IMG/VR virus record: IMGVR_UViG_3300017971_000207
Coordinates: 81,434 to 145,433 of that record
DNA from: a virus
Direction: 5' to 3' (one strand)
Length of the DNA: 64,000 nucleotides
Below, piece by piece: positions 6,949 through 53,865 of the stretch. Both the position numbers and the translations under genes were made by a program. Numbering within the stretch: position 1 is the stretch's first letter; every line of letters begins with the position of its first letter. Under the pieces are notes generated by a model. The model made no database searches. It had not been told where the DNA came from and saw nothing but the letters and a program-made list of their open reading frames with translations.

Positions 6949-7305
6949 ATGAATCGTGAGCTAAACCGCTTGTTAGAGAGCGTACGTGCAGAGCTGGCAG
7001 AGGGCCTCCCCAAAGGGAAGTACCTGGGCCTACGAGACGCAAAAAGCATCGACATGAACCGTGTCCGGGTTGATCTAGAGACCACCTCTGGGGACAATCT
7101 AGGGGGCAACATCGAAACCCTCTTGAGAGGTGAGGACGATGTAAGGTGGCTTACGAGGCCGCCGCGACGAGGGGAGGGCACCGCGAGCTTCACCATCTTC
7201 GTCCGGGACCCGGACGAGTTCAAGTACCTGTGGAACACGTTGGAGCGTGCAGAGATCTACGACGACACTATCCTAAACTTCTACGTCAGCGTCACGGACA
7301 TCTAG
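6949..7305 (+). CDS. Hypothetical protein with MNRELN-type leader
   Basis: MNRELNRLLESVRAELAE; RBS AGGAG. Confidence 0.75.
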   Translation: MNRELNRLLESVRAELAEGLPKGKYLGLRDAKSIDMNRVRVDLETTSGDNLGGNIETLLRGEDDVRWLTRPPRRGEGTASFTIFVRDPDEFKYLWNTLERAEIYDDTILNFYVSVTDI

Positions 7306-7314
7306 GATATCGAC

Positions 7315-7656
7315 ATGCACCACCTTCCCTTCTTACTCATGCTGGCCCTCATGGTCTGCATGCTCCCCGCCTGCCCGGACCCTGTCATCCCTGGCCCTCA
7401 ATGGGACGGGGGGTCTGTTGAGCCCGACCCCGTTCTACCCCCTGGTGTTGATGCCAACGAGGCTGCCTGCAAGCGCCTAGAGGAGCTGCAGTGCAAGTCA
7501 AAGGATGGGCGCAACCTCTGGGAGCCCACACCCGGCGGCGTCTCCTGCGTCGACGTGTTCCGCAACGCAGAGAAGAATGGGGTCAACCTACACCCTGCGT
7601 GTTTGGCTAAAATAGAACGCTGTGAGGATAGGCATCGGTGTACCGACAAGGGCTAG
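7315..7656 (+). CDS. Cys-rich lipoprotein
   Basis: Signal peptide with lipobox LPAC; six further Cys; PQWDGG linker. Confidence 0.7.
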   Translation: MHHLPFLLMLALMVCMLPACPDPVIPGPQWDGGSVEPDPVLPPGVDANEAACKRLEELQCKSKDGRNLWEPTPGGVSCVDVFRNAEKNGVNLHPACLAKIERCEDRHRCTDKG

Positions 7657-8159
7657 TCCAGATGCGCCCATAAACGGCGTGTGACAAGTGCATGCACCAG
7701 GCTCTCACTGACATGGTACTTCTCCGCCAAGCTTCTCAGGGACACCTTTCGAGGGACGTATCTCCGCCTGATGTCTCGCACCTGTTCAGGAGTAAGCTTG
7801 GCGGACCCGTTGGCTTCGCCTGGGTGTGCAACGTGTCGTCCTTTGGACATCATGTCTCTCATGTTATCCGTGTGGGTCCCAACCCACAGGTGCTCTGGGT
7901 TGACGCAGGGTGGGTTGTCACACTTGTGCAGAACACAGAGCCCCTCGGGTATAGGGCCGCGGGTAAGCTCCCAAGATACTCGGTGGGCATAGGTAGATAT
8001 GCTGCTGAGTTCCTGTCGGCTCCCCTGCCTGAAGAACCCATACTGGGTACGGGAGTGTCGAGGACCCGTCCAAAGCCAACAATCTCCACTACAGTCCACA
8101 TGTTTCCAGAATCGCTCGGTCTCGACCAGGCCGAAGGTAGTCTGCTGTCTTGCTGTCAT
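7653..8159 (-). CDS. HNH homing endonuclease with C-terminal HTH
   Basis: RFW..V..CWLWTG, AHRVSW, VLHKCDNPPCVNPEHL..GT..DNM. Confidence 0.92.
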   Translation of the reverse strand: MTARQQTTFGLVETERFWKHVDCSGDCWLWTGPRHSRTQYGFFRQGSRQELSSISTYAHRVSWELTRGPIPEGLCVLHKCDNPPCVNPEHLWVGTHTDNMRDMMSKGRHVAHPGEANGSAKLTPEQVRDIRRRYVPRKVSLRSLAEKYHVSESLVHALVTRRLWAHLD

Positions 8160-8386
8160 GATGCAGGAGGCTCCGCAGGCGTACGAAGACCTCGGACCGC
8201 GACTAGCTGGGCTTCCAGAGATTGCTCTGCCTTCGGCAGCTCCTTGGCCAAGAACTCCCCCAACGCTTCCTTGATCAGCTTGTTTAGCGTAGTCTCTCTG
8301 TAGTCGGCTAGGAACTTGAGACGCTTGTGGGTAAAAGGATACAACCTAACAGTGATTTTGACAGGATCTTCGTCTTTTGACTCCAT
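8156..8386 (-). CDS. Ribbon-helix-helix DNA-binding protein
   Basis: KITVRL..HKRLKFLA..TTLNKLIKEALGEFL. Confidence 0.75.
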   Translation of the reverse strand: MESKDEDPVKITVRLYPFTHKRLKFLADYRETTLNKLIKEALGEFLAKELPKAEQSLEAQLVAVRGLRTPAEPPAS

Positions 8387-8391
8387 AATAG

Positions 8392-8409
8392 GAGTATGGC
8401 GGCATACTC
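8392..8409. promoter_or_regulatory. Palindromic operator candidate upstream of RHH gene
   Basis: GAGTATG-GCGG-CATACTC in the divergent intergenic gap. Confidence 0.5.
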
Positions 8410-8483
8410 AAGAGTTGCCGTCAAACCAACCGAAGATCGAAAAGTGTGAGGACCGTCACAGCTGCACCGACAAAGGATAGCCC

Positions 8484-10001
8484 ATGACCAGCAAGGCACA
8501 ATTGACCGAGGAGATGCGGCGCCTGATGGGTGTTGCGCCACGACCGCTGGGGCCTTGGTCAGATAGACCAGAGGAGACCTGGAAAGAGCCGATCACCACA
8601 AAGCTCGATGAGGCCAAGCTCAAGGTAGACTGGGACGAGGGGATAAAGATAGTCGACCAGGCTCTGAACAAGCTTCGGACGACCGGCCCCAAGTGGCTGA
8701 AGGGCCTTGTAGGGGACGACTGGAAGGCAGGGAAGGTCCAGAAGACCAAAGGCAAAGGAGCCCAGAAGAAGTACACCGGGCGCCTTCGGCTCTTTGTGGG
8801 CCCCTCTGTCAGCAACGCCAGCAAGACCGTTGTGGTGACCCTGACGCAGACAGAGGCGCCGGGAGAGCACGACTACTACACCGGCGTATACACCACAGGG
8901 CTAATCGAGATCGACGCCTCCTGTAAGCTACTGTTGGGCAAAAAGGGTGTAGGCGGCGCCAAGGTGGGCCTACCCGACCTAAGCGCCATTCAGGACCTTA
9001 CTGCCAGCGTGCTTACCACCTTTAAGCCTTACCTTGAAAAGCACTTTGGTAGCCCGAGTGGAGAGGATGCGAAGGACCTCGCTAAGGATACCCTAAACGA
9101 CGCGGCACAAGAGCTACTACCGTGGCTCAAGGGCCTTACAGGCGACAAGTGGTATGCTTCCTCAGTGGGCCCAGAGACGCTGCGACTCCACGTCGGTCTA
9201 AGCTACGCCGACGCGCCGATCTCGATGACCATAATCCTGAAGTACGACCCCATCAAGGGGACCTTCACCGCAACAGCTCGCGCCTTCTCCGGGGAGGGGC
9301 TGATGGATAAGGTCACCAAGGACAATCTCAAGTCGGATGGTCTGCAGGGGGTTGTCGCCATCGCGAAAAGCTTACAGCCGGTGATAAAGCTGGCGTCCGA
9401 GGCTGCTCAAGAGGTCGCGGCGACGAACACCGAGGAGATCATCTTGGACGCTGTCGCGAACTTGGTAGCCGATGGTCTGGTGTGGCTAAAGGATGTAACC
9501 GGCGAACCGGACGGCTGGAAGATCACAAAACCTACGGAGCACGACCCCTGGATGTACTTCAACCTGAACCCGCCGGGGAAGAGCTTCACCTTGACGGTCG
9601 GAGTGGTGGTTGACCCGTTGGACGAGGGCGAGGGCTTCCAGGTCATCACGGACGTTCTAGGCAAACAGGGACAGCCCTTTGCCCACCACGGTCCTGTGAT
9701 CGCTAGTGAGGACGACCTAAAGGACCTAGTCAAGGTGGCTTTGAAGCCTGTTGAGAAGAACATCAAGGAGGTCATCAAAGCGGAGGGGGCCAAGGTCCTT
9801 ACCTTGATCAAAGATATTCGCACAGACTACAAGAAGATGCGCAAGGGCCTTGTCATGGCACGTGCCGCCTTGGAGTTCGTCAGCGAGAAGCTAGAGGTGG
9901 AGGATTTCACGGGGGTCGAGGCAAAATGCCTGGAGTTCGAGGAGAAGCTCGGCGCGGCACTCGACAGCTCGAAGCAGCTTCGCTCAAAGCTCCCTTACTA
10001 A
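8484..10001 (+). CDS. Hypothetical (putative virion-internal) protein with three internal repeats
   Basis: LTEEMRRLMG leader; three W-L-K-x-x-x-G segments; coiled-coil end similar to next gene. Confidence 0.75.
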   Translation: MTSKAQLTEEMRRLMGVAPRPLGPWSDRPEETWKEPITTKLDEAKLKVDWDEGIKIVDQALNKLRTTGPKWLKGLVGDDWKAGKVQKTKGKGAQKKYTGRLRLFVGPSVSNASKTVVVTLTQTEAPGEHDYYTGVYTTGLIEIDASCKLLLGKKGVGGAKVGLPDLSAIQDLTASVLTTFKPYLEKHFGSPSGEDAKDLAKDTLNDAAQELLPWLKGLTGDKWYASSVGPETLRLHVGLSYADAPISMTIILKYDPIKGTFTATARAFSGEGLMDKVTKDNLKSDGLQGVVAIAKSLQPVIKLASEAAQEVAATNTEEIILDAVANLVADGLVWLKDVTGEPDGWKITKPTEHDPWMYFNLNPPGKSFTLTVGVVVDPLDEGEGFQVITDVLGKQGQPFAHHGPVIASEDDLKDLVKVALKPVEKNIKEVIKAEGAKVLTLIKDIRTDYKKMRKGLVMARAALEFVSEKLEVEDFTGVEAKCLEFEEKLGAALDSSKQLRSKLPY

Positions 10002-10044: not shown

Positions 10045-10782
10045 GTGAGCAAACTGCAAGAGCAGCGGCGATTGATGGGGCTAGAGCCTCGACCTATGGG
10101 GCCATGGGCTCAGGACGCAGAGGGCGCGGGTCCTCCTGATGAGGAGATAGTAGAGGCGACCCAAGGACCCTGGGTAAAGATGAACCGCGCCCTCAAGAAG
10201 GCAGAAAAAGACGGGGTCTCCTGGATCAAAACGAACGTAGCCGACCGAGACTGGAAGACCTCCCTAACCACGGCCGACAAGAATTACCCCTACGGGCGGC
10301 TGGAGATCTACCTTCTTAGCCCCGAGGGAGTTTTCGAGAAGAACCTCTGGGACCTGACCATCTACCTAACGTGGACCGCATCCTTAAGCTCAGACACAGA
10401 CCCCAAGTTCAAAGCGCGCATCCGTTTGGAGGACAAGCAAGGCCAGGTTCACGTGGAGGAGACCAAGGAAGAGGTCAGCGCTGCGGACATCAAGGACCTC
10501 AAGAACCTGCTACTGCTGCCCAACAAGAAAGCTTTGGCCGATGCTTTTGCCCCCGGAGCCCAACAGAAGAAGTCGTTGAAGGACCTCCGGCGAGCATACA
10601 AGGATGCTCGCCAGAACCTCGTCTCTATGAGGGACAAGATCGAGGTTCTCAGCCAGCACCTAGAGAAAAGCGCGCTCGCGGATGTAAAGGATTCGGCTCA
10701 AGAGCTGTACAGCATGGAACTCAAGCTATCCTCAGCAATAAAGAAGCTGCGGAACTCTGCGGCCACCGCCGCAGAGTTCTAA
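10045..10782 (+). CDS. Paralog of preceding gene with one repeat
   Basis: LQEQRRLMGLEPRPMGPW leader; similar C-terminal coiled coil. Confidence 0.75.
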   Translation: MSKLQEQRRLMGLEPRPMGPWAQDAEGAGPPDEEIVEATQGPWVKMNRALKKAEKDGVSWIKTNVADRDWKTSLTTADKNYPYGRLEIYLLSPEGVFEKNLWDLTIYLTWTASLSSDTDPKFKARIRLEDKQGQVHVEETKEEVSAADIKDLKNLLLLPNKKALADAFAPGAQQKKSLKDLRRAYKDARQNLVSMRDKIEVLSQHLEKSALADVKDSAQELYSMELKLSSAIKKLRNSAATAAEF

Positions 10783-10784
10783 CC

Positions 10785-13700
10785 CTATCTTATCGGACAG
10801 CTTCCGCTAGCGCACGCCTCCTCAATCTCCATCTCACCGCCGTTGACCAGCGGGTGGTCGTGGTCGATGTTGGAGGCTAGACGCTCAAAGGTCTCGCGGT
10901 CTATCGCCTCGTAGGGAGGCTGGGCGTAGCCATGAGCCTTGGGCAAGCAGGTGGTGCTCTTAAGCCGCGGCACAAACTCCCCGAGAAGAGCGGCAAGCTC
11001 CTCCTGCTCCGTATCGGCGTCAAAGGTGATAGTGGCACTGACGGCATTATCTGCCCAGTGCTCCTGTACGGCCGCCTGCCGTTCAAACTGCTGGCGCAGC
11101 GTCTGCGTCTGCGCAGTCACGCGCCCCGCGGGCGTCGACTCTGCGAAGCTGAACACGATCGTGTTCCCTGTCTGGTCGTACACATCAAGCTCGTGCGGAA
11201 CGCCAGCCTCCATAAGGGCGCCGGCTAGGTTGTCCGCAATGTCCAAGCGAACACGGCGGATGTAGTGGCGCGCGAAGGGGGCGTGGATGCCTGGCGAGCT
11301 GCGGCTTAGCAACGATATGGTGCCGCTAGGCTTAACGGTGGTAACGGTCTTGGGGATAGCTGTGCCTAGCTCAATGGCGTAGCGCGTAGCCTCCCTGCGA
11401 CATGCTCCGTACCACGCATCGAGCTGTGCTGGCGTCCAGTCGAAGTCGCAGATACCCCCCAGCCCTACTCCTAGCCTCATGTTCTGCTGCTGCACCGCGT
11501 TCGAGATGGGGTCCGTCAGCTTAGACAGTCGATTGCGAAAGCAGTAGCGCGTGACAAGGCGAAACACCTCGTCAGCGTCAGTCGTATCGTGGAACCGTGA
11601 GGGGAACACCTCGGACAGGTTGCACGCCTCACGGTTGTACAGCGGCAGCTCGCCACAGTTGCCCGTCGCTACGCCGTCTGCAATGAAGGTCTCGTGCGTC
11701 GGCTGCTTGAGGCAGAACACCGGCTCGTGTCCGATAGGCTCGATGCTCACGATCTCCGTGGTGAACCGCTCCGCATAGGGTCCCCTCTTCCACGAGCTGC
11801 GCCAGCTTAGATAGCGATCCTCCATATCCTCTCGGAGGAATCCGAGCTGCTCATAGAAACGGACCGCGTTGGCCTTTGAGACAACAAGGTCGTACTGCGT
11901 CTTGCACCAGTAGTCAGCAAGGTCCCCCTTACCATCAGGCAGACGGCGATAGCCTGCGTCTCGCCGCTTGTAGACGGACGACACGATGCCGAAGTTTAGG
12001 AGCAGCGTTTGAACATCACGGAGAAGAGCTGGGTTGCTCTGCGACAGACGGACGGAGAAGGTCTGCTTTTCGGCTGTCCAGTTTATCTGACCGTCTGTTG
12101 CGAAGAGGCCGCGGAGGTAGCCGCGGACGCACTTTTTGGTCCCGCGCCACACCACCTCTGGCACAGAGCCCTTCTCACGATAGCCTACCTCAGCCAGGGC
12201 ACGGCTTAGCAGCGAGCTGCAGATGTCCTCGTAGCGATCATACACTTGACAACCGAAGCGCTTCAGGTGCCCGTTACGCGGCGCTACGGAGGCCGCTACC
12301 TCGTGGCACCACGCTAGATATTGCCCGGACATCTTGCGCTTGGCGTCCCAGAAGAATAGATGAGCGCGCTTGCCGTCCTCGCTCCAACAGCCGTCACCTT
12401 CGAGCCACCCAATAACATGCCCGAGAGCCTCGCTGCCGTCCGCCCCCCACAAACCCTCGCCGGATTGAAGTAGCAAGGTATCTCCAGGAGACAGGTCCTT
12501 AAGCTCCACAAAACCGTCGGGGGTCGGGAAGCGGTGATACGCCGTAGCCTTGATCTCGTTACCGTGCCGGGTCCGCATCCGGTAGACCTTCTCGGAGGCG
12601 CTTGTCTGGAAAGCCGCCTCCGCCTCGCGATGCACCGCTCCAGGCGAGACGTTCGTACGGTCCGTGCCGACACGAGCGTCGGTGGTGACCTGGAAAGCTT
12701 TGGCGTCCTTGAGATCTCGGATGGGTATTAAGCCCCATTGCGTGACGACACGGGTGTCGCCGGTGAGGCAGGGGTTGATCCCAACGATACCGGGGTCCGT
12801 CTCACGACATAGAGGGAGGTTGAACACACCAGGCTCGCCACCAGGCTCCGCAACGATGTCCGAAACGAGCTGGCGCCAGTCAAACCCCTCCAGCTCCTCC
12901 CTGCTTTGGAAGGCCAACGAGTTGTTGCTGGTGTGCCGATGCAAGGTTACCAGGCTCAGGTCCTTCTTCGCATTCCGGAAGGCTTGGTCGGTCGGGCTCC
13001 CCAAGGTCATCAAGGCGGAGTTGTGGACGAGCAAGCCGTTGCAGACAAACTCCTCAGCACCAGCTACCTCGATATCGTAGGTGTCCGCGGTCTCGTCCGT
13101 CTCGGTCACGTCCTGCACACAGATGGGCACGAGACCCTGAGCTTCTCCGCCCAGCTCTTCGTAAAGCGGGAAGACCATCTGTTTGCTGGTTGAATCCCAC
13201 CGACCTTTCCAGAAGGTGGTGCTGTGTTCTGCGCGCACCATCTCGGAGGGGTAGCCGTAGTCACACTGAGACACCGCGCTTACACGGACGCGCTTGGTCG
13301 CGTGGGGCTGCACTAGCTCCAGAAAGCGGGCCGTCGCGGTCCGTCCCACCAGATTGAGGTGGTACATAGGCTGCCAAGACCCTCTAGCAGAGCGATTAAG
13401 CTTCAACCTCGTCGGTATTCCCAGGCTCGCGTAGACCGCCTGCACCTGCTCCAGGAAGGAGGGGTACACCGAGGCGCAGAGAACCACGGGGCGATTGCGT
13501 GCTGCACCGTCCGCATCTAGGAGGCCCGCCAGGTAGGAGGCTCGAACATGGGGGAGCCCCTCCAAGATGAACGACGGCACGTTAAGAGGCTGACGGGGTT
13601 TCTTCAGATTATCGTCCAGGTACCAGGCTAGCTGCTTGGACTGTGCTCGTATCCTTAGACAGTCGTCGAGGGCTCGTGGGGGGCGCTCGTTGAGCCGGAC

Positions 13701-24621: not shown

Positions 24622-24777
24622 AGGCACTGATACTACCACATAGGGGGCGGATGGTCAATCGGCGGCGCCTGCGGCCGTCCGGGGCAAAAGCTCCCTAGAC
24701 CTCGTGGACCGACCAGCGACCAATTGTAGTCCGCAAGCTCCCTTGGAGAGCTCAGGGGAGTTTGGTAGACTCGGGGG

Positions 24778-25329
24778 ATGCTGCTGCAGGAGAAGATCAG
24801 GAGATGCGAGGATATCCTGGAAGCAGCCGGGCGTCCGCGGAGGCGGTACGCCCGGTGGGCGGAGGTAGAGGAGCTGGCGTCCGTGATCGCGGATAAGCTC
24901 CTGGTGTCTCTACTCTACGCTCGTGGCAGGGAGGCCAGCAGCGATTTTGGCGGCCTTGTCTCGGACCTTATCGAAGGCCCCTACGCCGCGCTCCTGATTC
25001 TCCGAGACGCTTTCAAGGCCGCCAAGATGACCAAGGTCTCAAGGGCGCTGGATGCTTGGGCTTCTAAGCACACTCCCATCCGGCCGGAGGAGGAGCTAAC
25101 CGACAAGGAGCTGCGAAGGTCCGAGAAGGCTCTAAGCCGCGCCCAGACCCGCGCCGCCAACATTCGGGACGCCATACGCTTCGGGCGAAGGGAGAAGCTT
25201 TACGAGGTCGAAGATCTTCGAGTCGACCTGCTGGAGCTAACTCTGATGCTGGCAGATGTCCTTCCCCTGCTGGGCTACCATACTGGAGGCCGCACCCTGG
25301 CGCAGCTGGTCCACACCATCCAGCTTTAG
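24778..25329 (+). CDS. Leader-bearing helical protein (paralog family)
   Basis: MLLQEKIRRCEDILEA; similar to 25341 and 51518 ORFs. Confidence 0.75.
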   Translation: MLLQEKIRRCEDILEAAGRPRRRYARWAEVEELASVIADKLLVSLLYARGREASSDFGGLVSDLIEGPYAALLILRDAFKAAKMTKVSRALDAWASKHTPIRPEEELTDKELRRSEKALSRAQTRAANIRDAIRFGRREKLYEVEDLRVDLLELTLMLADVLPLLGYHTGGRTLAQLVHTIQL

Positions 25330-25340
25330 GAGAGTCCGCC

Positions 25341-25865
25341 GTGGAACTGTATGAGAAGATCAAGAAGTGCCGAGACATCCTAGAGGCTCCCAGGCCCACC
25401 CTAGATATGCCGAGCTGGGAGGAGGTGGAGGTCGACCTCCGCGCCTCTCTGTCCGAGCTTGAGCTCGCGCTGTCCTACGCAGATGGACGTCGCCAAACAT
25501 TAGGGGAGCCCACGTCACACGCGGTAGCCGCCGACGTACGCAACGCGGCTCTAGATCTCAGCGCCGCGATGAAAAGCGCGGGCCTCTGGAGGATCAATCG
25601 CGCCGTAGAGCGCTGGTATGACAACCACGTCGGCCGCCAGCCCGAGCGCGACGTAAGCCTGGCAGGTATCCGCACCGCACAGCCAAAGCTGGCCGGGCTC
25701 CGCGCAGGTACCGAGGCAGTGCTAGGCAGCATTCCTAGGCTCCCCGATGTTGCTGAGCTTAGAGGAGACCTGGCGACGCTCTTGCGTCTTTACGGCCCAA
25801 TTCTGACCTCGTTGGGGTTCACCAGCGCGGGCGCAGATATTAGCAGAATTGCTCAAAGCGCTTAA
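25341..25865 (+). CDS. Leader-bearing helical protein (paralog family)
   Basis: MELYEKIKKCRDILEA; RBS AGGAG. Confidence 0.75.
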   Translation: MELYEKIKKCRDILEAPRPTLDMPSWEEVEVDLRASLSELELALSYADGRRQTLGEPTSHAVAADVRNAALDLSAAMKSAGLWRINRAVERWYDNHVGRQPERDVSLAGIRTAQPKLAGLRAGTEAVLGSIPRLPDVAELRGDLATLLRLYGPILTSLGFTSAGADISRIAQSA

Positions 25866-25881
25866 AAGCGATAAGCAGTAC

Positions 25882-26491: not shown

Positions 26492-26541
26492 GTCGTTGCT
26501 CTCCGTTGTTGTTTTAACAGTATACGGTAAGGCGGGGGTTG

Positions 26542-31775: not shown

Positions 31776-32588
31776 ATGAACCGGGAGATCAACGAGCGGC
31801 TGGATGATGTCCGAGCGCTGCTGGAAAGCTTTAAGCCTCCTGCTAACGTCGCTAAGGCGGCCGCACGCGGGCTGGAGTACCGGCGTAAGCAGACGGACAA
31901 GGCGGGGCTCACACCAGCTCAGGCGGCAAAGGCGGGCATAGGCAGCGGAGTACAGCGAGCGGTCAACCTCAAGAACCGGGATCGCATCAGCCTCAAGGTC
32001 ATCAAGCAGATGAACGCCTTCTTTGCTCGGCACGCCAAGAACGCAGCGGTGGATGCGAAGCATCGCGGGGAGCCCTGGAAGGATAAGGGCTATGTGGCGT
32101 GGCTGCTGTGGGGTGGGGACGCCGGGCGGTCATGGGCCCGAAAGGTGCTCAAGAAGCAGCTGAAGGAGGCGGACGAGGGGGGCCTGTCTGTCCGAGAGGT
32201 GGTGGAGCGCTGGAGGCGGGGAGAGCGTGCGGGCAACGGCGCGGTGCTCTGGTATCCGGCTCGGGAGCTTTGGCCATATCGCGAGCACACGTGGACGCGG
32301 GATACGGCTCGGCCGGGGCTGGCCTGGGTGGAGGGTCAGCAGCTGTGGCTTGACGGTGATGTGAAGTGGGATGCGCTGCGGGCCGACATGCAGGCTCGGG
32401 GCTGGGATGAGGATGAGCCGCTGCTGATGCGGGTTGGGAGGAACGGCGTAGCGCTGCTAGGGGAGGGGAACCACAGGCTCGCTATTGCCCGAGAGCTTGA
32501 CCTCATGGTGCCGGTGGAGCTGCAGTTTGAGCAGCGGGTGGTCAACGAGCGGGAGGTTATGGTTCGAGAGCTTGGGGGCCGCGGCTAG
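31776..32588 (+). CDS. Leader-bearing fusion of a phage head-associated-type domain and a ParB/Srx-like domain
   Basis: MNREINERLDDVRALLE; ARGLE..FFARH..AWLLWGG; EGNHRLAIA. Confidence 0.75.
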   Translation: MNREINERLDDVRALLESFKPPANVAKAAARGLEYRRKQTDKAGLTPAQAAKAGIGSGVQRAVNLKNRDRISLKVIKQMNAFFARHAKNAAVDAKHRGEPWKDKGYVAWLLWGGDAGRSWARKVLKKQLKEADEGGLSVREVVERWRRGERAGNGAVLWYPARELWPYREHTWTRDTARPGLAWVEGQQLWLDGDVKWDALRADMQARGWDEDEPLLMRVGRNGVALLGEGNHRLAIARELDLMVPVELQFEQRVVNEREVMVRELGGRG

Positions 32589-33346
32589 AGCTCGTCGTCG
32601 TCCGGATATAGCCGTTGCAGCTCTGACCACTCGTCGGAGACCACGCGGGCTACGGCTTTAAGGACCAGGCGATTGTTGGCGGAGGTGAGGTCGCGTCTGA
32701 TGCGCTCCCATGTTGCCGAGCTGTCGAGAGCGGATTGGATCATGTCTGAGCTTGGGGGTCCTACAAAGAGCCAGCCTCCATCATCCTGTCCGAGATGGTG
32801 GAGGTATGCGAGGGCCTCATCTGATATCTGCTGCATGAAGGCTCGGACCTCTGAGGGGCGGTTGTGGTAGTCGAGGCCCTTCTCGGGCTTAAGCAGATCA
32901 CGAAGGTGCGTTACCTCATGCACCAGCACGGAGTAAAGCTCATCCTCCACCTCGCTCATGTTGGCCAGGAGCTCCGATGGGCTTCGTTGGCTATTTAGCC
33001 CGATAAACAGCAGGTGCTTTACCCCGTAGGAGGTTGGGGTGTCGTGTGTGCTGAGCACGTTGCCTCCGGTTACGTAGCGCCGGGGGCTCCGCCACGTGCG
33101 CGGCTCCTCAACGCGTAGCGTCACGTCGACCTTGACAGGAGCACCTCGGACGTCCGTGGTCTCGTAGGCTCCCAACGACCAGCTACGCCGCCGCAACGGC
33201 CGCTCTGAGGGCTTCAGCTTCCTCCTCAGAAGGCTGATGGCCTCCTTGGCTAGCTGCCTTGCCTGCCTCTTATCAATGGGGATAGGTCGGCCCTCCCCCA
33301 GCTCTAGGCGTATCCTGGAGAGGATACTGTTGATGCTTTCTCTCAT
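32585..33346 (-). CDS. Leader-bearing putative zincin metallopeptidase
   Basis: MRESINSILSRIRLELGE; LVHEVTH..EVRA. Confidence 0.7.
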   Translation of the reverse strand: MRESINSILSRIRLELGEGRPIPIDKRQARQLAKEAISLLRRKLKPSERPLRRRSWSLGAYETTDVRGAPVKVDVTLRVEEPRTWRSPRRYVTGGNVLSTHDTPTSYGVKHLLFIGLNSQRSPSELLANMSEVEDELYSVLVHEVTHLRDLLKPEKGLDYHNRPSEVRAFMQQISDEALAYLHHLGQDDGGWLFVGPPSSDMIQSALDSSATWERIRRDLTSANNRLVLKAVARVVSDEWSELQRLYPDDDEL

Positions 33347-33964: not shown

Positions 33965-35026
33965 CTACCGCTTGTACCCCCGCAGCAGTGCTTTCTCTAG
34001 AGCTTGTAAGCTCAAGGTCGGATGGCCTCCTCCCAGCATCGCCCATATGTCATTGTAGCTGCTTCGCAGCCAGCTACGAAGCTGCTCCGCGGTCCACCCG
34101 TCACGCTTGGCCTGCCGTCCAGTGGTGATAGCTGCGCTCTCCATTCGCATTGCGGGTGGGTCCCCTTGGAATAGATCGAAGGCGCGAGCCGCATGTGATG
34201 CCAGCTGCTGCGCCTTTATTGGATCAATAGGTTTTTCCTTTACCGCGCTCTTTCCGCTAAGCCACGCTTCAAAGGCGTCGAAGAGCTCCGGAGCCGTGCG
34301 CTCCATATGCTTGGGCGCCAAAGCCCACCAGGCTGCGGCCTCCATGGTGCCCTCTAGATCTCCTGCTAGACCATGATAGACCGACACCCCCTTACCCCAA
34401 GCCTTGAGGGCTTTGGTTGCAAGAGCCCCAGCTGCAGGGTCCTTGGCGTATACCGCGTGGGCGGCCTCATGTGCTGCTGTCTTCGACCCGTGATGAACCT
34501 TGGTTCCCCCAACCTCTGTTGTGTTGTCTAGGTGGGCGTTAACCACTCGGGCGCGCCCCGCCAAGCTGTCCCCCTCAACATCCCCGTGAGGCTTCACGAA
34601 GAACTCGATCTTAATGGTCGGTAGAACCCTCTTAGCCGCCCGCGTCGCCTTTGCGAGGTTGGCCTTCCCCCCATCCGAAGGTTTCCAAGGACGCTCCTTC
34701 GCGGGAGGAGGCGACATCTTAACTATCCGATCAACCTCTTTAACCCATCGCTCCAGCTCCTTAAGCTTCCCTACAATCACCCCCACGCTGCCGTCGCGGC
34801 CGTGATATACGAGCCAGCCGTCCTTTAGCTCGTAGCGAGCGATAGCCATGGGAAAGGTGTCGTCCGTGTCTGGTGGTTCGGCCCACACCTTTCCTATTCC
34901 GGGAACCGCTACCATGGCGACCTTTCCCCCCACACTGCGTCGAGCCTGCTTCCGTAGATTCGGCGCGGCTGCGGCCTCCCCTAGGATCATTCTACACCGC
35001 TCGATCTTCTCAGCTAATGTCCGCAT
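33965..35026 (-). CDS. Leader-bearing putative zincin-motif protein
   Basis: MRTLAEKIERCRMILGEA; AHEAAH. Confidence 0.7.
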   Translation of the reverse strand: MRTLAEKIERCRMILGEAAAAPNLRKQARRSVGGKVAMVAVPGIGKVWAEPPDTDDTFPMAIARYELKDGWLVYHGRDGSVGVIVGKLKELERWVKEVDRIVKMSPPPAKERPWKPSDGGKANLAKATRAAKRVLPTIKIEFFVKPHGDVEGDSLAGRARVVNAHLDNTTEVGGTKVHHGSKTAAHEAAHAVYAKDPAAGALATKALKAWGKGVSVYHGLAGDLEGTMEAAAWWALAPKHMERTAPELFDAFEAWLSGKSAVKEKPIDPIKAQQLASHAARAFDLFQGDPPAMRMESAAITTGRQAKRDGWTAEQLRSWLRSSYNDIWAMLGGGHPTLSLQALEKALLRGYKR

Positions 35027-48628: not shown

Positions 48629-50593
48629 ATGAGTCTAGAGGAGCAGATTAAGGACATCAAAGGGCTGCTGGCCGCGGTCGAGAAGATCAAAAAGGACGCA
48701 GAGCCTCCCGTCGCAGAGCCTGAGCCTACCACCGCTCCGGCAGCAGTGCCGACGGCTGCGCCAGAGCCCGAGGCTAAGACCTTCAAGACGAGCACGACCT
48801 ACGACCTCACCACGCTCATGCACATGGTGTACGGGGAAAATGGGGTGAGCATTGCTGACCTACACACGTCCACCGCGGGCTTCACCTCTGCCGAGGAGTG
48901 GTATGAGAGCCCCAACGCGCAGAAGTTCCTCGTCCAGACGCTCTCGGACAACGAGGGCACCGTCTTCCAGTGGCTAACCGACGCAAAGGCTGAGACGGAC
49001 ATCCCCGCGTTTGTCGACACAGCTCACATGGTCAAGAGCCACGAGGATTGGGTGCCACAGCTGATAGCGCGAGTGACGGGAAAGAAGGGCCTCAAGGCGG
49101 CCGTCACGGACTTCATCACGGGGCTGGGCGGACAGATCGTCTACGCTGGTGAGCAGGACCTCGACCCAGACGACGCAGCGTACGGCGAAGGATCAATCTA
49201 CGAGGTCGAGGCAGACTTCTGGGAGCCCGCCGGCAAGGTGCTTAAGGATGTGATCGCGAGCGCTGTCGACAAGGCTATAGCAGCTTCCAAGGCTATAGCT
49301 ACCGGAGCGATCAAGCTGCCGCTGAGCAAGGTTGTGGACGCTCTTGCCACAGGCGACTACGAGCCCCTAGCCAAAGGCGCCGTATTGATGGGCGCCAAGG
49401 CGCGCCAGATGCTTCGTAAAGCCTTCTCAAAGGCGCAGGCGGACAACGATCTCTCCGCAGCGCTAGAGCTGGCCAAGCTCCTAGCCACAGCCCACGGCGC
49501 AAACCAACACCCCACCATCGCCAAGAAGTGGAAGGATAAGGCCGCCGACATAGAGGCTCAGCTGGCGGCAGCAGAGCCCGAGCCCGCAGCAGAGCCTGAG
49601 CCTGCACCTGCCGCCGTCTCCACAGGCGAGAGCCTAAAGACGCTGCTGCCAAAGGCGTACGCTGAGAGCGACGGCGAGGCCATTCTAACGAAGGGGATGG
49701 AGGGCTTCACAAGCCTAGAGGGGTGGTACAAGAACATAGCGGCCCGACGGACAATGACGCGGCTGATGGTGTATGCGCCCAAGGCGGTCACCGCCTGGTT
49801 GGAGAGCGCCACCGACGCCCTCACCGTCTACGTGGACGATGCTGAGATGATCTACGGGGATGACGGGCAGCCTGAGCTATCCGCCAACATGACGGGCCTC
49901 GCCGGCCTGAAGGAGACCATCCAGGATCTTCTAACCAAGATGGGTGCTGACTCCACATACGTCTACGAGAAGGACCTACCCCCCGACGACGTGGGCTCAG
50001 ATGCGGGCTCCGCATACGAGGTCACGGCCGTGTTCAACGAGTCCCCAGAGGCCACGCTGAAGGCCGCTCTCGGGCCCGAGATTGAGGCTGTGGCCGCCAA
50101 GGTGTTTGCTGATGGAGAGTCGGAGCTAGCCCCGATGACACCAGCAGAGGTAGCCAAGGCTATAGCAGCAGGCGATTACGACACCCTTGAGAAGGGCGCC
50201 CCCCTCCTCAGCACCGAGGCTCGCTTGGAGGTCCACAAAGCCCTCATCCAAGCGAAGGATAGCGGCGACCTGATAACAGCAGCCAAGCTTGCGACCATCA
50301 TGGCCATAGCCATGGACGCAAAGGGCAATGCCCTCGCCGCAGCTGAGTGGAAGGCGCAGGCTGCGGAGCTCAAGCAGCAGGCAGCAGACGCAGTGCCCGA
50401 GGAGCCTGCAGAGCCTCCCAAAAAGAAGACGATCGCCTCACCTACACCCAAGCCGGTCCTACCCAACCTACCGGCAGGCGCCAAGTCTCGCACGTGGCAG
50501 TTCGCTGGCACCTACGTGCGGCTAGCAGACGGTACGTGGGTCACCGAGGCGGAGCTCAAGAAGATAGATGAGCTGGCCGCCAAGCCCGCCTGA
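48629..50593 (+). CDS. Ala-rich protein with a duplicated ~260 aa module and leader
   Basis: MSLEEQIKDIKGLL; GFTS.E.WY..DL.PDD..GS.YEV.A.F..GDY..L.KGA twice. Confidence 0.8.
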   Translation: MSLEEQIKDIKGLLAAVEKIKKDAEPPVAEPEPTTAPAAVPTAAPEPEAKTFKTSTTYDLTTLMHMVYGENGVSIADLHTSTAGFTSAEEWYESPNAQKFLVQTLSDNEGTVFQWLTDAKAETDIPAFVDTAHMVKSHEDWVPQLIARVTGKKGLKAAVTDFITGLGGQIVYAGEQDLDPDDAAYGEGSIYEVEADFWEPAGKVLKDVIASAVDKAIAASKAIATGAIKLPLSKVVDALATGDYEPLAKGAVLMGAKARQMLRKAFSKAQADNDLSAALELAKLLATAHGANQHPTIAKKWKDKAADIEAQLAAAEPEPAAEPEPAPAAVSTGESLKTLLPKAYAESDGEAILTKGMEGFTSLEGWYKNIAARRTMTRLMVYAPKAVTAWLESATDALTVYVDDAEMIYGDDGQPELSANMTGLAGLKETIQDLLTKMGADSTYVYEKDLPPDDVGSDAGSAYEVTAVFNESPEATLKAALGPEIEAVAAKVFADGESELAPMTPAEVAKAIAAGDYDTLEKGAPLLSTEARLEVHKALIQAKDSGDLITAAKLATIMAIAMDAKGNALAAAEWKAQAAELKQQAADAVPEEPAEPPKKKTIASPTPKPVLPNLPAGAKSRTWQFAGTYVRLADGTWVTEAELKKIDELAAKPA

Positions 50594-51517: not shown

Positions 51518-52027
51518 TCAGAGCCTCGGGATGACGCGCCAGAGGTCCGCTCCGGCCTCGTCGTACCCCATACGATGCAGCACCTTAGCAGTGACGTCCA
51601 CGAGACCCTTCACCTTCTTCATATCCTCAAGAACTCCAGGGTTGTGTGTGATCTGCCGATACATCCCATTAGCCTCCTGCCAGACAGACCGCACAAAGGC
51701 TACAAGGTTGTCGATCGCTGTGAACTCCGAGGTAGGGGCCTTGTCGCGCCACCGGGTGCTCCACGCTTCAAGGGCTTTCCCCTCCTGGACGTTACCCTGG
51801 AGCTTCAGCATCCCACCGAGGTAGGCCATTGCCCAGTTGAGGTAGCGCGCCACCTCCTTAGACTTACCTCTACGCGCAGCCTTCGTAGCGAGGTTGAGAT
51901 TGTCTCGGACGTCTGCGAACCAGTCCGCGGGGCCTTCGGAAGGCTCCTCGTACTCCATAGAGTCGCTACCCTCCAACTCCAACAGCCGACGGCACTCCTC
52001 AAGCTTCCTGTTCAATGCTCGGTTCAT
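51518..52027 (-). CDS. Leader-bearing helical protein (paralog of 24778/25341)
   Basis: MNRALNRKLEECRRLLE; KALEAW; GY..AGADL. Confidence 0.75.
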   Translation of the reverse strand: MNRALNRKLEECRRLLELEGSDSMEYEEPSEGPADWFADVRDNLNLATKAARRGKSKEVARYLNWAMAYLGGMLKLQGNVQEGKALEAWSTRWRDKAPTSEFTAIDNLVAFVRSVWQEANGMYRQITHNPGVLEDMKKVKGLVDVTAKVLHRMGYDEAGADLWRVIPRL

Positions 52028-52096
52028 GTGTTCTCTCTCTCTCCGTAACGGTTAGCGGGATCGCGGAGGCAGTCTATCAATCCAGCATGTAGAATG

Positions 52097-52459
52097 CTAG
52101 CCGACCTTCTTCTGCCAAAGCCTGTCGGCGTCGTTGAAGATGCGCTTGATATCTGATAGGTCTGAGTAGTCGTACTCGTGGCGGGCGATCGAGGTCTCGT
52201 CTCGGCCGAGGGACAGGTAGGCCATACCGTCGCTCATGCTCCCGTCCAGCACGTCCTCCAGGTCAAACAGCGTGACGGACATCGAGTGACCCTCCGGGCC
52301 ACGGAAGACCGCTGTTGTGATCTCGTCGTCCTCGTGCACCTCCCACCCAGGCCCAGCAATCCGCTGGAGCTGCTGGGCAGCACTCGCCTCATGAAGGTCC
52401 TCCGCACCCTCCAGGATGGAACGGACCTCCTCCAGCTTCGCATTCAGCTCACGGTTCAT
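52097..52459 (-). CDS. Leader-bearing hypothetical protein
   Basis: MNRELNAKLEEVRSILEGAEDLHEA. Confidence 0.75.
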   Translation of the reverse strand: MNRELNAKLEEVRSILEGAEDLHEASAAQQLQRIAGPGWEVHEDDEITTAVFRGPEGHSMSVTLFDLEDVLDGSMSDGMAYLSLGRDETSIARHEYDYSDLSDIKRIFNDADRLWQKKVG

Positions 52460-52502
52460 TGATCGTACTCTCCTCCACAGTCACAAGATCTTGGGCAGTC
52501 TA

Positions 52503-52727
52503 TCACCCTCTCGGACAACGTACTAGCTCAGCCGCACGCAGCTCATTAGCAAAGTGCTGGTGCACACGACGCACCTCACGTCGTACCACCCTAGGGTCTC
52601 CCTGGATACGCCGAGCGGTCCGTCGACCGCTGCGATGTAGCGTGATGACGGTAGCCTCCACAGCCTGAGCCCGCTCATTGAAGCGGGTATGCTCGACGGT
52701 GTACGAAAGGACAGGATCCTCCGACAT
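52503..52727 (-). CDS. Hypothetical protein
   Basis: Fills operon gap; start uncertain. Confidence 0.45.
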   Translation of the reverse strand: MSEDPVLSYTVEHTRFNERAQAVEATVITLHRSGRRTARRIQGDPRVVRREVRRVHQHFANELRAAELVRCPRG

Positions 52728-52753
52728 CAGAGCTCTTAGCGACCACGTGGTCG

Positions 52754-53281
52754 CTAATCCCCCGTAACCTCGAACGGATCTAAGGCGCCCATAGGCCACG
52801 TTCCTCGGGGCCCGCGACGGTCCAGAGCAAACTCCGTTGGCAGCTCCGCTGGGTCTTCTCCAGGCTCCTCGGGAGATGTCGATCGCGACCAACGCCTGGG
52901 CGGGGGAACAGGCTCTCCAGCTGCTGCAGCCTCTCGCCGTCGACGCTCATAACGCGCCTGCTCCTGAAAGACGACTAGCGCATTGCGCACTGTAGCTAAG
53001 ACCTTAATAACGTTGATGCCGTGCGCCTTATCACGATCGAGGCCACGGAGCACATCGCTCATATTCTCCACCTCATGCTGGAGTGCGCGAAGAAAGGTGG
53101 CCTCATCCCGGCTTCTCACAGAGCTCCGCACCCCGACTCCGAGCGGCGCCACCAGCTTACCTATCTTCTGCCAATCGATCACGTGCTCCCGCCGTCGCAC
53201 GTCCTCAAGAAGCGCGCGCCCCGCCTGCAGCTCAAGAGCGGCCCGACAAACCCGCAGCACTCTGTTGGTCTCTGGTGTCAT
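52754..53281 (-). CDS. Leader-bearing hypothetical protein
   Basis: MTPETNRVLRVCRAALE..LLE; paralog of next ORF. Confidence 0.7.
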   Translation of the reverse strand: MTPETNRVLRVCRAALELQAGRALLEDVRRREHVIDWQKIGKLVAPLGVGVRSSVRSRDEATFLRALQHEVENMSDVLRGLDRDKAHGINVIKVLATVRNALVVFQEQARYERRRREAAAAGEPVPPPRRWSRSTSPEEPGEDPAELPTEFALDRRGPRGTWPMGALDPFEVTGD

Positions 53282-53292
53282 GGTTGGGTCCC

Positions 53293-53865
53293 TCACCTCC
53301 GGCGCGGCCTTGTGGCTGCGTGGCTTTGACTGGTGGACCAGCTCCCCGAGCTGTGCCGCTCTCCTGGGTACATGGTGGTCAACTGCGACGGGGTCCGCTG
53401 AGACCGAGGAGGTCTAATCCGAGTAGAGGGGCCACTTACCGACGGCGACCTCCCTCGCACCCCACGCCGCGGAGGCGGGGGGGCCTGCCCGCGTCGGCGC
53501 GCGGGAGGCACGCGAGCATCGCCGCGCTCTTCTGCATCCCACCGAGCCTGCCGCGCAAGCTCCGATACCGCCGTAGACGCCGCCATAAGCTCCCGATTAA
53601 AATCGTGGCCTTCCCAGGTGTCGCGATATACGCCCTGCCCTCCTAAGAGGGCGCGGATCTTATCCACCTCTTTTTGCAGAGCATAGAGAAGGTAGTCCTC
53701 CGATTCGTGCTCCGCTGCGTGCCTAGCCTCCGCGCCCAGCGGTCCGACAAGCCTTCTTATGCGATTCCACTGCGGAGCCGGCTTAGCTTCGCAAAGGCTC
53801 CGGTGTTGACCTACCTCTAGCAGGACTACGCAAGCTCGCAGCACCGTATTCATCTCTGGGGTCAT
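53293..53865 (-). CDS. Leader-bearing hypothetical protein
   Basis: MTPEMNTVLRACVVLLE..LCEA; W..I..LV.PLG..ALQ.EV shared. Confidence 0.7.
   Translation of the reverse strand: MTPEMNTVLRACVVLLEVGQHRSLCEAKPAPQWNRIRRLVGPLGAEARHAAEHESEDYLLYALQKEVDKIRALLGGQGVYRDTWEGHDFNRELMAASTAVSELARQARWDAEERGDARVPPARRRGQAPPPPRRGVRGRSPSVSGPSTRIRPPRSQRTPSQLTTMYPGERHSSGSWSTSQSHAATRPRRR

What the first reader, a model, noticed from the sequence alone, without database searches (positions are those of the whole stretch)
6949..53865. About 13 diverse proteins share short N-terminal leaders ending in Glu: candidate capsid-loading tag for a packaged effector cargo
Seen: 15-25 aa amphipathic leaders on otherwise different proteins scattered over the window. 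Type A: MNRELNRLLESVRAELAE (6949), MNREINERLDDVRALLE (31776), MRESINSILSRIRLELGE (33346), MNRALNRKLEECRRLLE (52027), MNRELNAKLEEVRSILE (52459), MTPETNRVLRVCRAALE (53281), MTPEMNTVLRACVVLLE (53865). Type B: MLLQEKIRRCEDILE (24778), MELYEKIKKCRDILE (25341), MRTLAEKIERCRMILGE (35026), MSLEEQIKDIKGLL (48629). Type C: LTEEMRRLMG (8484), LQEQRRLMG (10045). Cargo includes two HExxH zincins, a ParB/Srx-like domain and repeat proteins. None of the clear replication enzymes has such a leader. Known: T4 internal proteins use a 10-aa capsid-targeting sequence removed by gp21 after (I/L)-X-E, and the phiKZ prohead protease also cuts after Glu. Inference: this is a modular address tag that loads varied enzymes into the head for delivery with the DNA.
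Basis: partly seen in the sequence, partly recalled or inferred. Interest (0 to 1): 0.88.

Follow-up and report, generated by a model that had tools for sequence, protein, structure and literature searches.

The report
Shared leader tags on phage proteins
In an uncultivated relative of phage T4, about a dozen unrelated proteins begin with the same short helix that ends in the cutting site of the phage's head protease, so they are most likely loaded into the head and injected with the DNA, as T4's internal proteins are.

Summary
The window is the last 64 kb of a 145-kb phage contig. All 13 peptides sit at the stated starts. Ten or eleven belong to one statistically supported N-terminal motif of 15-18 residues, which is an amphipathic helix ending in L/I-x-E followed by a small residue. 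Two more copies lie outside the window, beside the tail sheath gene. Type C and B4 are not supported. The motif occurs nowhere else in the six-frame translation. It is conserved as protein, not as DNA. The bodies behind it are unrelated apart from three paralogue pairs.

The phage has a T4-type head module: a gp23-family capsid protein and a gp21-family (Peptidase_S77) prohead protease. T4 gp21 cuts after L/I-x-E. Three cargo families have homologues in other phages whose conserved core carries a different, lineage-specific leader. A second, distant phage with the same head module has its own leader on three adjacent unrelated genes.

The best reading (0.65) is a capsid-targeting propeptide system like that of the T4 internal proteins. 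Packaging and cleavage are inferred, not shown. It is a new member of a known kind and moderately interesting. This scan had already noted the same feature on this genome, in an overlapping window.

The parts
6949..7305 (+). A1, 118 aa. Core type A leader (residues 1-18) on an ORFan body.
   Evidence: Leave-one-out score 24.3 bits. Shine-Dalgarno sequence at proper spacing. No Pfam or PHROG hit.
31776..32588 (+). A2, 270 aa. A core type A leader (17 aa) is fused directly onto a widely distributed conserved domain. An unassigned C-terminal half follows.
   Evidence: Leave-one-out score 14.6 bits. In most of 120 homologues the conserved domain starts at or a few residues from the N-terminus and has no such leader. 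The closest homologue (76% identity) has a variant of the leader.
32585..33346 (-). A3, 253 aa. Peripheral type A leader (18 aa) on an HExxH protein family.
   Evidence: PSSM rank 7 of 176 N-termini. In family alignment A1 the invariant core begins two residues after the leader's Glu. Other lineages carry other leaders there. In the AF2 model (mean pLDDT 90.8) the leader is a separate helix, residues 5-17, at pLDDT 66.
51518..52027 (-). A4, 169 aa. Core type A leader on an ORFan body.
   Evidence: Leave-one-out score 21.6 bits.
52097..52459 (-). A5, 120 aa. Core type A leader on an acidic ORFan body.
   Evidence: Leave-one-out score 23.6 bits.
52754..53281 (-). A6, 175 aa. Peripheral type A leader.
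   Evidence: PSSM rank 8 of 176 N-termini. Paralogue of A7.
53293..53865 (-). A7, 190 aa. Paralogue of A6 with a weaker leader. Its tail is rich in Arg, Pro and Ser, and its coding score is low, so it may be decaying.
   Evidence: 32% identical to A6 over 114 aa, E 2e-11. Not selected by my codon-usage gene caller.
24778..25329 (+). B1, 183 aa. Type B leader (15 aa).
   Evidence: Paralogue of B2. Its similarity to type A is weak on its own.
25341..25865 (+). B2, 174 aa. Type B leader (15 aa), GTG start.
   Evidence: With a shift of 2 residues it scores 15.5 on the type A PSSM, and only 33 of about 188,000 windows score as well.
33965..35026 (-). B3, 353 aa. Type B leader (17 aa) on a second HExxH family.
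   Evidence: Leave-one-out score 13.9 bits. In family alignment A2 the HExxH is invariant and the leaders differ by lineage. A database gene call starts at Met13 and so hides the leader.
48629..50593 (+). B4, 654 aa. Acidic protein with an internal repeat. Doubtful member.
   Evidence: PSSM score 16.5 with a shift of 2. After correction for about 500 N-terminal trials this is borderline, and no L/I-x-E ends the helix.
8484..10001 (+). C1, 505 aa. It carries a different N-terminal motif (a helix followed by a Pro-rich linker). It is not part of the supported family.
   Evidence: Similar only to its paralogue C2. No hit with the leader HMM.
10045..10782 (+). C2, 245 aa. Paralogue of C1. Not part of the supported family.
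   Evidence: 28% identical to C1 over 192 aa.

Best explanation
The leaders are capsid-targeting propeptides of a T4-type head assembly system.

Proposed mechanism:
1. Each tagged protein is made with a 15-18-residue amphipathic N-terminal helix.
2. The helix docks onto the scaffolding core of the prohead. The likely partners are the coiled-coil C-terminal extension of the protease and the small core proteins encoded between the portal and protease genes.
3. After shell assembly, the gp21-family serine protease cuts after the Glu of the terminal L/I-x-E.
4. The mature protein is released inside the head and is ejected into the host with the DNA.

The cargo is a fast-changing set of small proteins. 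It includes two HExxH families and a domain that other phages fuse to effector-type domains, so the cargo proteins are plausibly early-acting counter-defence or takeover factors.

Shown here:
- The shared leader, its exclusive N-terminal position and its protein-level conservation.
- The modular exchange of leaders and bodies.
- The presence of the S77 protease and the gp23-type capsid protein.

Inferred:
- Docking, cleavage, packaging and ejection.
For: The motif:
- It is confined to start codons, with a gap of more than 10 bits to any other site in the six-frame translation.
- The bodies are unrelated.
- Selection acts on the protein, not the DNA.

The head module:
- MCP matches Pfam Gp23, E 2e-73.
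- The protease matches Pfam Peptidase_S77, E 1e-16, and T4 gp21 structure 5JBL, E 8e-10. The His and Ser motifs are present.
- The gene order is portal, small core proteins, protease, MCP, as in T4 genes 20-67-68-21-22-23 (the T4 order is from my own knowledge).

The cleavage site:
- T4 gp21 cuts after L/I-x-E, and T4 internal proteins carry 10-19-residue N-terminal targeting propeptides (PMC9026906). I read the T4 ipI, ipII and ipIII N-termini from NC_000866.
- L/I-x-E followed by G, A or S, ending at residues 8-22, occurs in 9 of 11 tagged proteins and in 6 of 151 others.
- The MCP, the protease and the core paralogues also carry L/I-x-E near their N-termini.

Modularity:
- In the A2, A3 and B3 families the conserved core is preceded by lineage-specific leaders. 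In eight A3-family members the leader Glu sits exactly two residues before the invariant core.
- Contig L031 keeps two leader-bearing genes after the sheath gene, but their bodies are unrelated to those in this genome.

A second phage:
- G004 is a distant phage (MCP 34% identical) that also has a long-form S77 protease.
- It has its own leader ending in L-L-E on three adjacent unrelated genes, one of them the A3 orthologue.

Structure:
- AF2 places the A3 leader as a detached helix of lower confidence.
Against: - There is no proteomic, expression or structural evidence that any tagged protein is in the virion or is cleaved.
- The leader has no sequence similarity to the T4 targeting sequence.
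- A3, A6/A7 and B1/B2 are not individually significant in the HMM leave-one-out test.
- Two leaders (A4, A6) have Leu rather than a small residue after the Glu, and A6 has Ala rather than Leu or Ile at P3.
- Three tagged genes (B1, A2, B3) sit behind sigma-70-like promoter-like sequences, which suggests early expression. T4 internal protein genes are also expressed early, but that is from my own knowledge.
- Three closer relatives (MCP 69-83% identical) show no copy of this leader in the 62-98 kb available. These fragments share few genes with the window region.
- The enrichment of L/I-x-E is partly circular, because the set was chosen for ending in Glu.
Confidence: 0.65

Rival explanations
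1. The helix is a docking tag for a partner other than the prohead core. Candidates are a phage chaperone, a tail or baseplate component, or a common host target such as RNA polymerase or a protease adaptor. The terminal Glu would then be incidental.
For: The tag is a generic amphipathic helix. Two tagged genes lie between the sheath and tube genes, inside the tail part of the structural cluster. Several tagged genes lie among early-looking genes with sigma-70-like promoter-like sequences. No direct evidence links the tag to the head.
Against: This reading does not explain why the helix ends in the gp21 recognition motif followed by a small residue in 9 of 11 cases. It does not explain why unrelated leader types in other lineages also end in L/I/V-x-E exactly at the junction with the conserved core. 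It also does not explain why, in this small sample, leaders ending in Glu occur in the contigs that encode S77.
Confidence: 0.17
2. The leader is mainly an inhibitory or stabilising propeptide, as in a zymogen. It keeps potentially toxic proteins such as the HExxH enzymes inactive until the phage protease removes it. It has no role in addressing.
For: Two cargo families have invariant HExxH motifs. In the A3 family the leader abuts the invariant core directly.
Against: The same leader sits on small bodies of 108-183 aa that are unrelated in sequence and have no recognisable active-site motif. One sequence is unlikely to inhibit such different folds. In the AF2 model the A3 leader is detached from the body. 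In T4 the equivalent peptide is sufficient for targeting (PMC9026906).
Confidence: 0.1
3. The shared N-termini have no function of their own. They are leftovers of gene duplication or of recombination at conserved 5' gene ends.
For: Three paralogue pairs exist. Two tandem copies beside the sheath gene also share upstream DNA.
Against: Apart from those pairs, the bodies show no similarity. Codons differ at about half of the identical residues, and the upstream DNA is at the random level, so DNA homology is not what is conserved. The motif is kept at the start codon in every copy. It is also kept in a related contig where the bodies differ.
Confidence: 0.05

Closest known systems
Capsid targeting sequences of the phage T4 internal proteins IPI, IPII, IPIII and Alt, removed by prohead protease gp21 (Mullaney and Black 1996; reviewed in PMC9026906 and PMC3012670)
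   Same: - A short N-terminal propeptide is shared by otherwise unrelated, rapidly diverging proteins.
- It ends in L/I-x-E followed by a small residue.
- The genome encodes a gp21-family protease and a gp23-family capsid protein.
- The tagged genes are scattered outside the head gene cluster.
- The T-even literature already describes diverse internal proteins that share only the targeting sequence (PMC3012670, citing Repoila 1994).
   Different: - The leader sequence is unrelated to the T4 one.
- It is longer than the shortest T4 leader: 15-18 residues against 10 in IPII and IPIII.
- There are two subtypes, and many more carriers in one genome: 11-13, against four internal proteins in T4.
- The cargo is not uniformly basic and includes HExxH proteins of 253 and 353 aa.
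- The protease carries a coiled-coil extension of about 350 residues, where T4 has a separate scaffold gene.
- Nothing here has been tested experimentally.
Propeptides of inner-body and ejection proteins of giant phages phiKZ, 201phi2-1 and SPN3US, cut by gp175/gp245 (PMC5694885, PMC9026906)
   Same: A diverged gp21 homologue cuts after Glu. N-terminal propeptides are proposed to target proteins into the prohead. The paralogues gp53 and gp54 of SPN3US share an identical 15-residue N-terminus.
   Different: Those sites are S/A/G-x-E, and most of those propeptides exceed 100 residues. Here P3 is Leu or Ile, as in T4, and the leaders are short. The capsid protein here is clearly gp23-like at the sequence level.
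Polyvalent proteins of phages and conjugative elements (Iyer et al. 2017, PMC5512222)
   Same: Effector-type domains (zincin-like HExxH, ParB-like, InPase and others) are delivered with the DNA. Homologues of the A3 domain occur inside proteins of 845-903 aa in other phages. Homologues of the A2 domain are fused to InPase and 2H-phosphoesterase-type domains.
   Different: Here the domains are separate small proteins, each with its own address tag, not domains strung into one giant polypeptide. The family assignments of A3 and B3 rest only on the HExxH motif and on weak language-model neighbours.

Membership tests
T4-type capsid-targeting propeptide / internal protein system | The genome encodes a gp21-family (Peptidase_S77) prohead serine protease. 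| tested here: met
   Contig 25242-26843 (minus strand), outside the window. Pfam PF03420, E 1.1e-16, 61 bits against a cut-off of 27. T4 gp21 structure 5JBL, E 7.8e-10, with the His and Ser motifs aligned.
T4-type capsid-targeting propeptide / internal protein system | A gp23-type major capsid protein with an N-terminal propeptide that holds L/I-x-E sites. | tested here: met
   Pfam Gp23, E 1.9e-73, starting at residue 75. Position 30 of mature T4 gp23 aligns with residue 81. L/I-x-E sites end at residues 11, 56 and 67. Which site is used is unknown.
T4-type capsid-targeting propeptide / internal protein system | A short N-terminal peptide of about 10-20 residues, shared by proteins that are otherwise unrelated. 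| tested here: met
   10-11 proteins in the window plus 2 outside it. No internal copies. The bodies are unrelated except for three paralogue pairs.
T4-type capsid-targeting propeptide / internal protein system | The peptide ends in the protease site L/I-x-E. | tested here: met
   10 of 11 tagged proteins have L/I-x-E ending at residues 8-22. In 9 of 11 it is followed by G, A or S, against 6 of 151 other proteins. The test is partly circular.
T4-type capsid-targeting propeptide / internal protein system | The tagged proteins are present in the prohead or virion with the leader removed. | not testable with these tools
   The phage is uncultivated and no proteomic data are available.
T4-type capsid-targeting propeptide / internal protein system | The leader is sufficient to load a foreign protein. 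| not testable with these tools
   This needs an experiment.
T4-type capsid-targeting propeptide / internal protein system | A scaffolding core that receives the leader (gp22, gp67, gp68 in T4). | tested here: inconclusive
   The protease has a charged helical C-terminal part of about 350 residues with many L/I-x-E sites. Two acidic paralogues with a shared N-terminus lie between the portal and protease genes. No homology to T4 gp22, gp67 or gp68 was detected.
phiKZ-type inner-body propeptides | Cleavage motif S/A/G-x-E and propeptides mostly longer than 100 residues. | tested here: not met
   P3 is Leu or Ile in 10 of 11 leaders, and the leaders are 15-18 residues long.
Polyvalent proteins | A single polypeptide that combines two to fifteen effector-type domains. 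| tested here: not met
   The tagged proteins are 108-353 aa, with at most two recognisable regions. Only homologues in other phages are embedded in proteins of 845-903 aa.
Zincin-like metallopeptidase (for A3 and B3) | A conserved HExxH with a downstream third ligand, and the zincin fold. | tested here: inconclusive
   HExxH is invariant in both family alignments, and A3 has an invariant Glu 19 residues downstream. There are no Pfam hits even at E 10. Foldseek and VIA-align found no clear match for the A3 model: best Z 6.5, covering only the helical C-terminal part.

The most novel reading that the evidence does not exclude
Lineage-specific N-terminal address tags are a general, exchangeable code for loading virion cargo in many phage groups, not only T4 relatives. 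The same three cargo families carry at least four leader types in different lineages.
- Two types end in L/I/V-x-E and occur with S77 proteases.
- Two types lack Glu. One is built around Y-x-Y-D-R and the other around R-V-A-x-R-aromatic.
- The two Glu-free types recur on several neighbouring, otherwise different genes in jumbo-phage contigs of 360-485 kb where no S77 protease was found.

If this holds, the injected effector repertoire of an uncultivated phage could be read from its genome by finding its repeated N-terminal tag.
Probability: 0.3. Interest if true: 0.75.

Novelty: new member of a known kind. Interest (0 to 1): 0.5.

Why it matters
If the reading is right, the leader marks a dozen otherwise unannotatable proteins of an uncultivated phage as proteins delivered into the host at the first moment of infection. 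Anti-restriction and takeover factors such as T4 IPI and Alt belong to this class.

It also offers a practical rule for mining such effectors in metagenomic phages: look for a repeated N-terminal peptide that ends in the site of the resident prohead protease.

The comparative pattern shows that the cargo and its address evolve separately, because the same cargo core carries different leaders in different lineages. This is useful for engineering protein delivery by phages other than T4.

The principle itself has been known from T4 since the 1990s.

Tried and rejected
- **DNA-level explanation** (shared regulatory or recombination sequence): rejected. Codons differ and the upstream DNA is unrelated.
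- **The over-represented octamer GTCCGAGA as a shared promoter of tagged genes**: rejected. Its 55 copies lie mostly inside genes and not at fixed distances from starts.
- **Strict back-translated leader pattern.** It found nothing in IMG/VR. In JGI metagenomes it found one true relative (L031) and three chance matches in a low-GC bacterial gene.
- **Three relatives found through the capsid protein** (G001-G003). They lack this leader and lack homologues of the tagged bodies. They are fragments that share few genes with the window region, so this says little. A candidate leader family in G002 rests on only two strong members.
- **Search for relatives through the neighbouring radical SAM gene.** It found nothing.
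- **Pfam, PHROGs and the protein atlas.** They gave no firm family for any tagged body.
- **Fold searches with a confident A3 model.** They gave no clear match.
- **Tool problems.**
It was redone from files.
- **Unused tools.** The single search of protein representatives and the sequencing-run tools were not used. An 18-residue profile cannot reach significance in 1.8 billion proteins, and reads cannot show cleavage.


Full report
**What the window is.** The window is the last 64 kb of a single 145,433-bp phage contig with GC 0.61. CheckV rates the contig 64% complete. My own codon-usage gene call gives 176 genes. The window holds:
- intein-rich replication and nucleotide-metabolism genes (class II ribonucleotide reductase, a UvrD-like helicase);
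- a NUDIX protein, a radical SAM protein, phosphatidylserine decarboxylase and a TnpB gene;
- many small ORFans.

**The observation.** All 13 peptides are present at the stated coordinates, six of them on the minus strand. Two further type A leaders lie outside the window, at contig 12786-13112 and 13152-13529 (minus strand), directly downstream of the tail sheath gene.
- *HMM scan.* An HMM of the 12 type A and B leaders scores its members at 18-30 bits. The next best site anywhere in the six-frame translation of the contig (244,594 residues) scores 7.4 bits. Every member starts at the start codon, or at residue 2 for B2.
- *Leave-one-out.* I also left out paralogues. Six core leaders (A1, A2, A4, A5 and the two new ones) score 13-26 bits against a background maximum of 8.2 bits. 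B3 reaches 13.9 bits. A3, A6/A7 and B1/B2 do not reach significance this way.
- *Anchored PSSM.* A BLOSUM-based PSSM built from the six core leaders and anchored at residue 2 ranks A3 and A6 7th and 8th among the 176 N-termini. Only 9 and 15 of 187,852 windows score as well, the six core leaders among them. With a shift of one or two residues, B3, B2 and B4 reach comparable scores.
- *Conclusion on membership.* Types A and B are best seen as one motif family: polar residue, x, x, L/I, x, x, V/I/C, R, x, x, L, optional x, E. B4 is borderline. Type C is a different motif found on one paralogue pair.
- *Bodies.* Removing the first 22 residues leaves only three similar pairs: C1/C2, B1/B2 and A6/A7.
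- *Level of selection.* The six core leaders are 56% identical in residues 2-15, but only 48% of the identical residues use the same codon. The 42 nt upstream are 25% identical, so selection acts on the peptide.
- *Start codons.* Eight of the eleven starts have a Shine-Dalgarno sequence at normal spacing.

**The head module.** It lies outside the window.
- The capsid protein (contig 23685-25193) matches Pfam Gp23 at E 1.9e-73, T4 gp23 structures at E 1e-27, and is 28% identical to cyanophage gp23.
- The next gene (25242-26843, 533 aa) matches Pfam Peptidase_S77 at E 1.1e-16 and the T4 gp21 structure 5JBL at E 7.8e-10 over residues 40-185. The His- and Ser-containing motifs are conserved.
- The remaining ~350 residues of that protein are charged and helical, with 14 L/I-x-E sites in the whole protein. 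It looks like a fused scaffold.
- Upstream lie a 60-aa gene, two acidic paralogues that share their own 20-residue N-terminus with L-x-E ending at residue 12, a 318-aa protein, and an intein-bearing portal. This order mirrors T4 genes 20, 67, 68, 21, 22, 23. The T4 order is from my own knowledge.
- The capsid protein has L/I-x-E sites ending at residues 11, 56 and 67, upstream of the point that aligns with position 30 of mature T4 gp23.

**What is known.**
- T4 gp21 cuts after L/I-x-E.
- T4 internal proteins and Alt carry 10-19-residue N-terminal propeptides that target them to the scaffolding core and are then removed.
- The first ten residues of IPIII suffice to load foreign proteins (PMC9026906, sections 2.5-2.7).
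- The T-even internal proteins are described as a highly diverse set of defence proteins that share only the targeting sequence (PMC3012670, citing Repoila 1994).
- I read the T4 ipI, ipII and ipIII N-termini from NC_000866. The leaders are 10 and 19 residues long and end in I-x-E followed by Ala. Their sequence is unrelated to the leader here.

**Fit of the leaders to that system.**
- Ten of eleven tagged proteins have L/I-x-E ending between residues 8 and 22.
- Nine of eleven have it followed by G, A or S, against 6 of 151 other proteins (Fisher p 1.5e-9). The test is partly circular, because the set was chosen for ending in Glu.
- The hydrophobic positions follow an i, i+3, i+4, i+7, i+11 pattern, which gives one face of a helix.
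- An AlphaFold2 model of A3, built on 23 homologues (mean pLDDT 90.8, pTM 0.86), shows the leader as a separate helix (residues 5-17, pLDDT 66). A short linker follows, and then the confident body.

**Comparative evidence for a modular tag.** This is the strongest new evidence.
- *A2.* It has 369 database homologues at E ≤ 0.001. Its conserved N-terminal domain is 55-76% identical across the 119 best homologues listed. In most homologues the domain starts at or a few residues from the N-terminus. In A2 the 17-residue leader is fused directly in front of it. The closest homologue (76% identical) carries a recognisable variant of the leader.
- *A3.* It has 24 homologues, and the invariant core begins at A3 residue 20. 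Upstream of the core, every homologue has a short extension of 6-21 residues that falls into classes by lineage:
  - the leader of this phage;
  - a second helix type ending in L/I-V/I-E then Ala (five proteins);
  - a third type ending in L-x-E then Gly or Ala (two proteins);
  - a Glu-free type built around Y-x-Y-D-R (thirteen proteins).
  In all eight Glu-ending cases the Glu sits exactly two residues before the invariant Arg.
- *B3.* Its homologues show the same behaviour. One carries the second helix type seen on the A3 family.
- *L031.* This 2.3-kb metagenome contig was found with a back-translated leader pattern. It has the same gene order as this genome: sheath, an HNH-like gene, then two leader-bearing genes. 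Only the leaders align with the two genes here, and the bodies are unrelated.
- *G004.* This IMG/VR contig (121 kb, GC 0.44) is a distant relative, with MCP 34% and the protease domain 39% identical. It has a long-form S77 protease (E 8.7e-19). Three adjacent genes of 182, 196 and 263 aa share their own 17-19-residue leader, which ends in L-L-E in two of them (L-L-K-E in the third). Their bodies are unrelated, and the third is the A3 orthologue. Further leader-like N-termini sit on genes just upstream of its protease.
- *Jumbo-phage contigs.* Four contigs whose A3 homologues carry Glu-free leaders gave no S77 hit, although two of them are incomplete.

**The cargo.** None of the tagged bodies has a Pfam hit, and only A2 has a PHROG hit, to a family of unknown function.
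- HExxH is invariant in the A3 and B3 families.
- Language-model neighbours are viral hypothetical proteins. The nearest named clusters are LPD23 (score 0.86) and an anthrax-lethal-factor-type zincin domain (0.89). These are leads only.
- Fold searches with the A3 model were inconclusive.
- In other phages, A3-like domains occur inside proteins of 845-903 aa. A2-like domains are fused to InPase, 2H-phosphoesterase and ferritin-like domains. This recalls the virion-delivered polyvalent proteins (PMC5512222).
- The predicted pI of the mature proteins ranges from 4.4 to 10.2, so the cargo is not uniformly basic like the T4 internal proteins.

**Weaknesses.**
- Nothing shows that these proteins are packaged or cut.
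- Some members are supported only by the anchored PSSM or by paralogy.
- Three tagged genes have sigma-70-like promoter-like sequences 15-16 nt upstream of the start.
- The three closest relatives are fragments that miss most of the window region.

**Verdict.**
- The system works like the T4 capsid-targeting and internal-protein system and meets all sequence-level criteria for membership. The experimental criteria are untested.
- It is a new member of a known kind, with an unusually large tagged set.
- The comparative pattern of exchangeable leaders may prove more general.
- An earlier first-stage note on this genome (e1-5782645) described the same feature from an overlapping window.

Noticed in passing
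L035:9576-10765, L036:3264-5260, L043:7167-20527; proteins P0127-P0139, P0003, P0008, P0011, P0018, P0086, P0148, P0151: Two Glu-free N-terminal motifs recur on A2-, A3- and B3-family homologues. One is built around Y-x-Y-D-R and the other around R-V-A-x-R-aromatic. Both also occur on neighbouring unrelated genes in jumbo-phage contigs of 360-485 kb where no S77 protease was found. They may be address tags of other phage lineages.
   Followed up: partly
window:31830-32190 (+), A2 residues about 18-135: A domain with no Pfam model. It is 55-76% identical across the 119 best of 369 database homologues. It usually lies at the very N-terminus and is fused to many different C-terminal domains, including InPase, 2H phosphoesterase, ferritin-like and C39-like peptidase domains.
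   Followed up: partly
contig 25242-26843 (L002:7242-8843, minus strand); G004 70998-72437: The gp21-family protease is fused to a charged helical extension of 300-350 residues. This form, 479-533 aa in total, occurs in this phage, in G001, in G002 and in the distant G004. It is possibly a protease-scaffold fusion replacing a separate gp22.
   Followed up: partly
window:24763, 31761, 35042 and 30374, 31357 (15-16 nt upstream of the starts of B1, A2, B3 and two other genes): A TG-n-TAG-type element, in some cases with a TTGACA-like hexamer upstream, sits 15-16 nt before the start codon. This would give nearly leaderless transcripts.
   Followed up: partly
Most lie inside genes, often antisense to the gene, and they keep no fixed distance to starts. 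It does not behave like a promoter.
   Followed up: partly
window:33965-35026 (-): A database gene call for the identical protein (P0146) starts at Met13 and so removes most of the leader. Automatic start calls can hide such tags.
   Followed up: no
contig 33873-34277 (L002:15873-16277, minus strand); G001 9139-9833; G002 4455-5172: The small genes between the terminase and portal genes in this phage and two relatives begin with a short helix followed by a Pro-rich stretch. This resembles the type C start of C1 and C2.
   Followed up: no
contig 10699-12656 (L001); G003 18723, 26752, 32431, 36004: Several tail-fibre-like genes share a different N-terminal module that begins M-A-x-I/L-x-N-L-T. 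It is probably a common attachment domain and is unrelated to the leaders studied here.
   Followed up: no
window:33348-33899 (-): A thymidine kinase gene lies between the tagged genes A3 and B3. In T4, ipII and ipIII also lie a few kb from tk. This is probably a coincidence.
   Followed up: no
window:53293-53500 (-): The last 45-65 residues of A7 are rich in Arg, Pro and Ser and have a poor coding score. The paralogue may be decaying or frameshifted.
   Followed up: no
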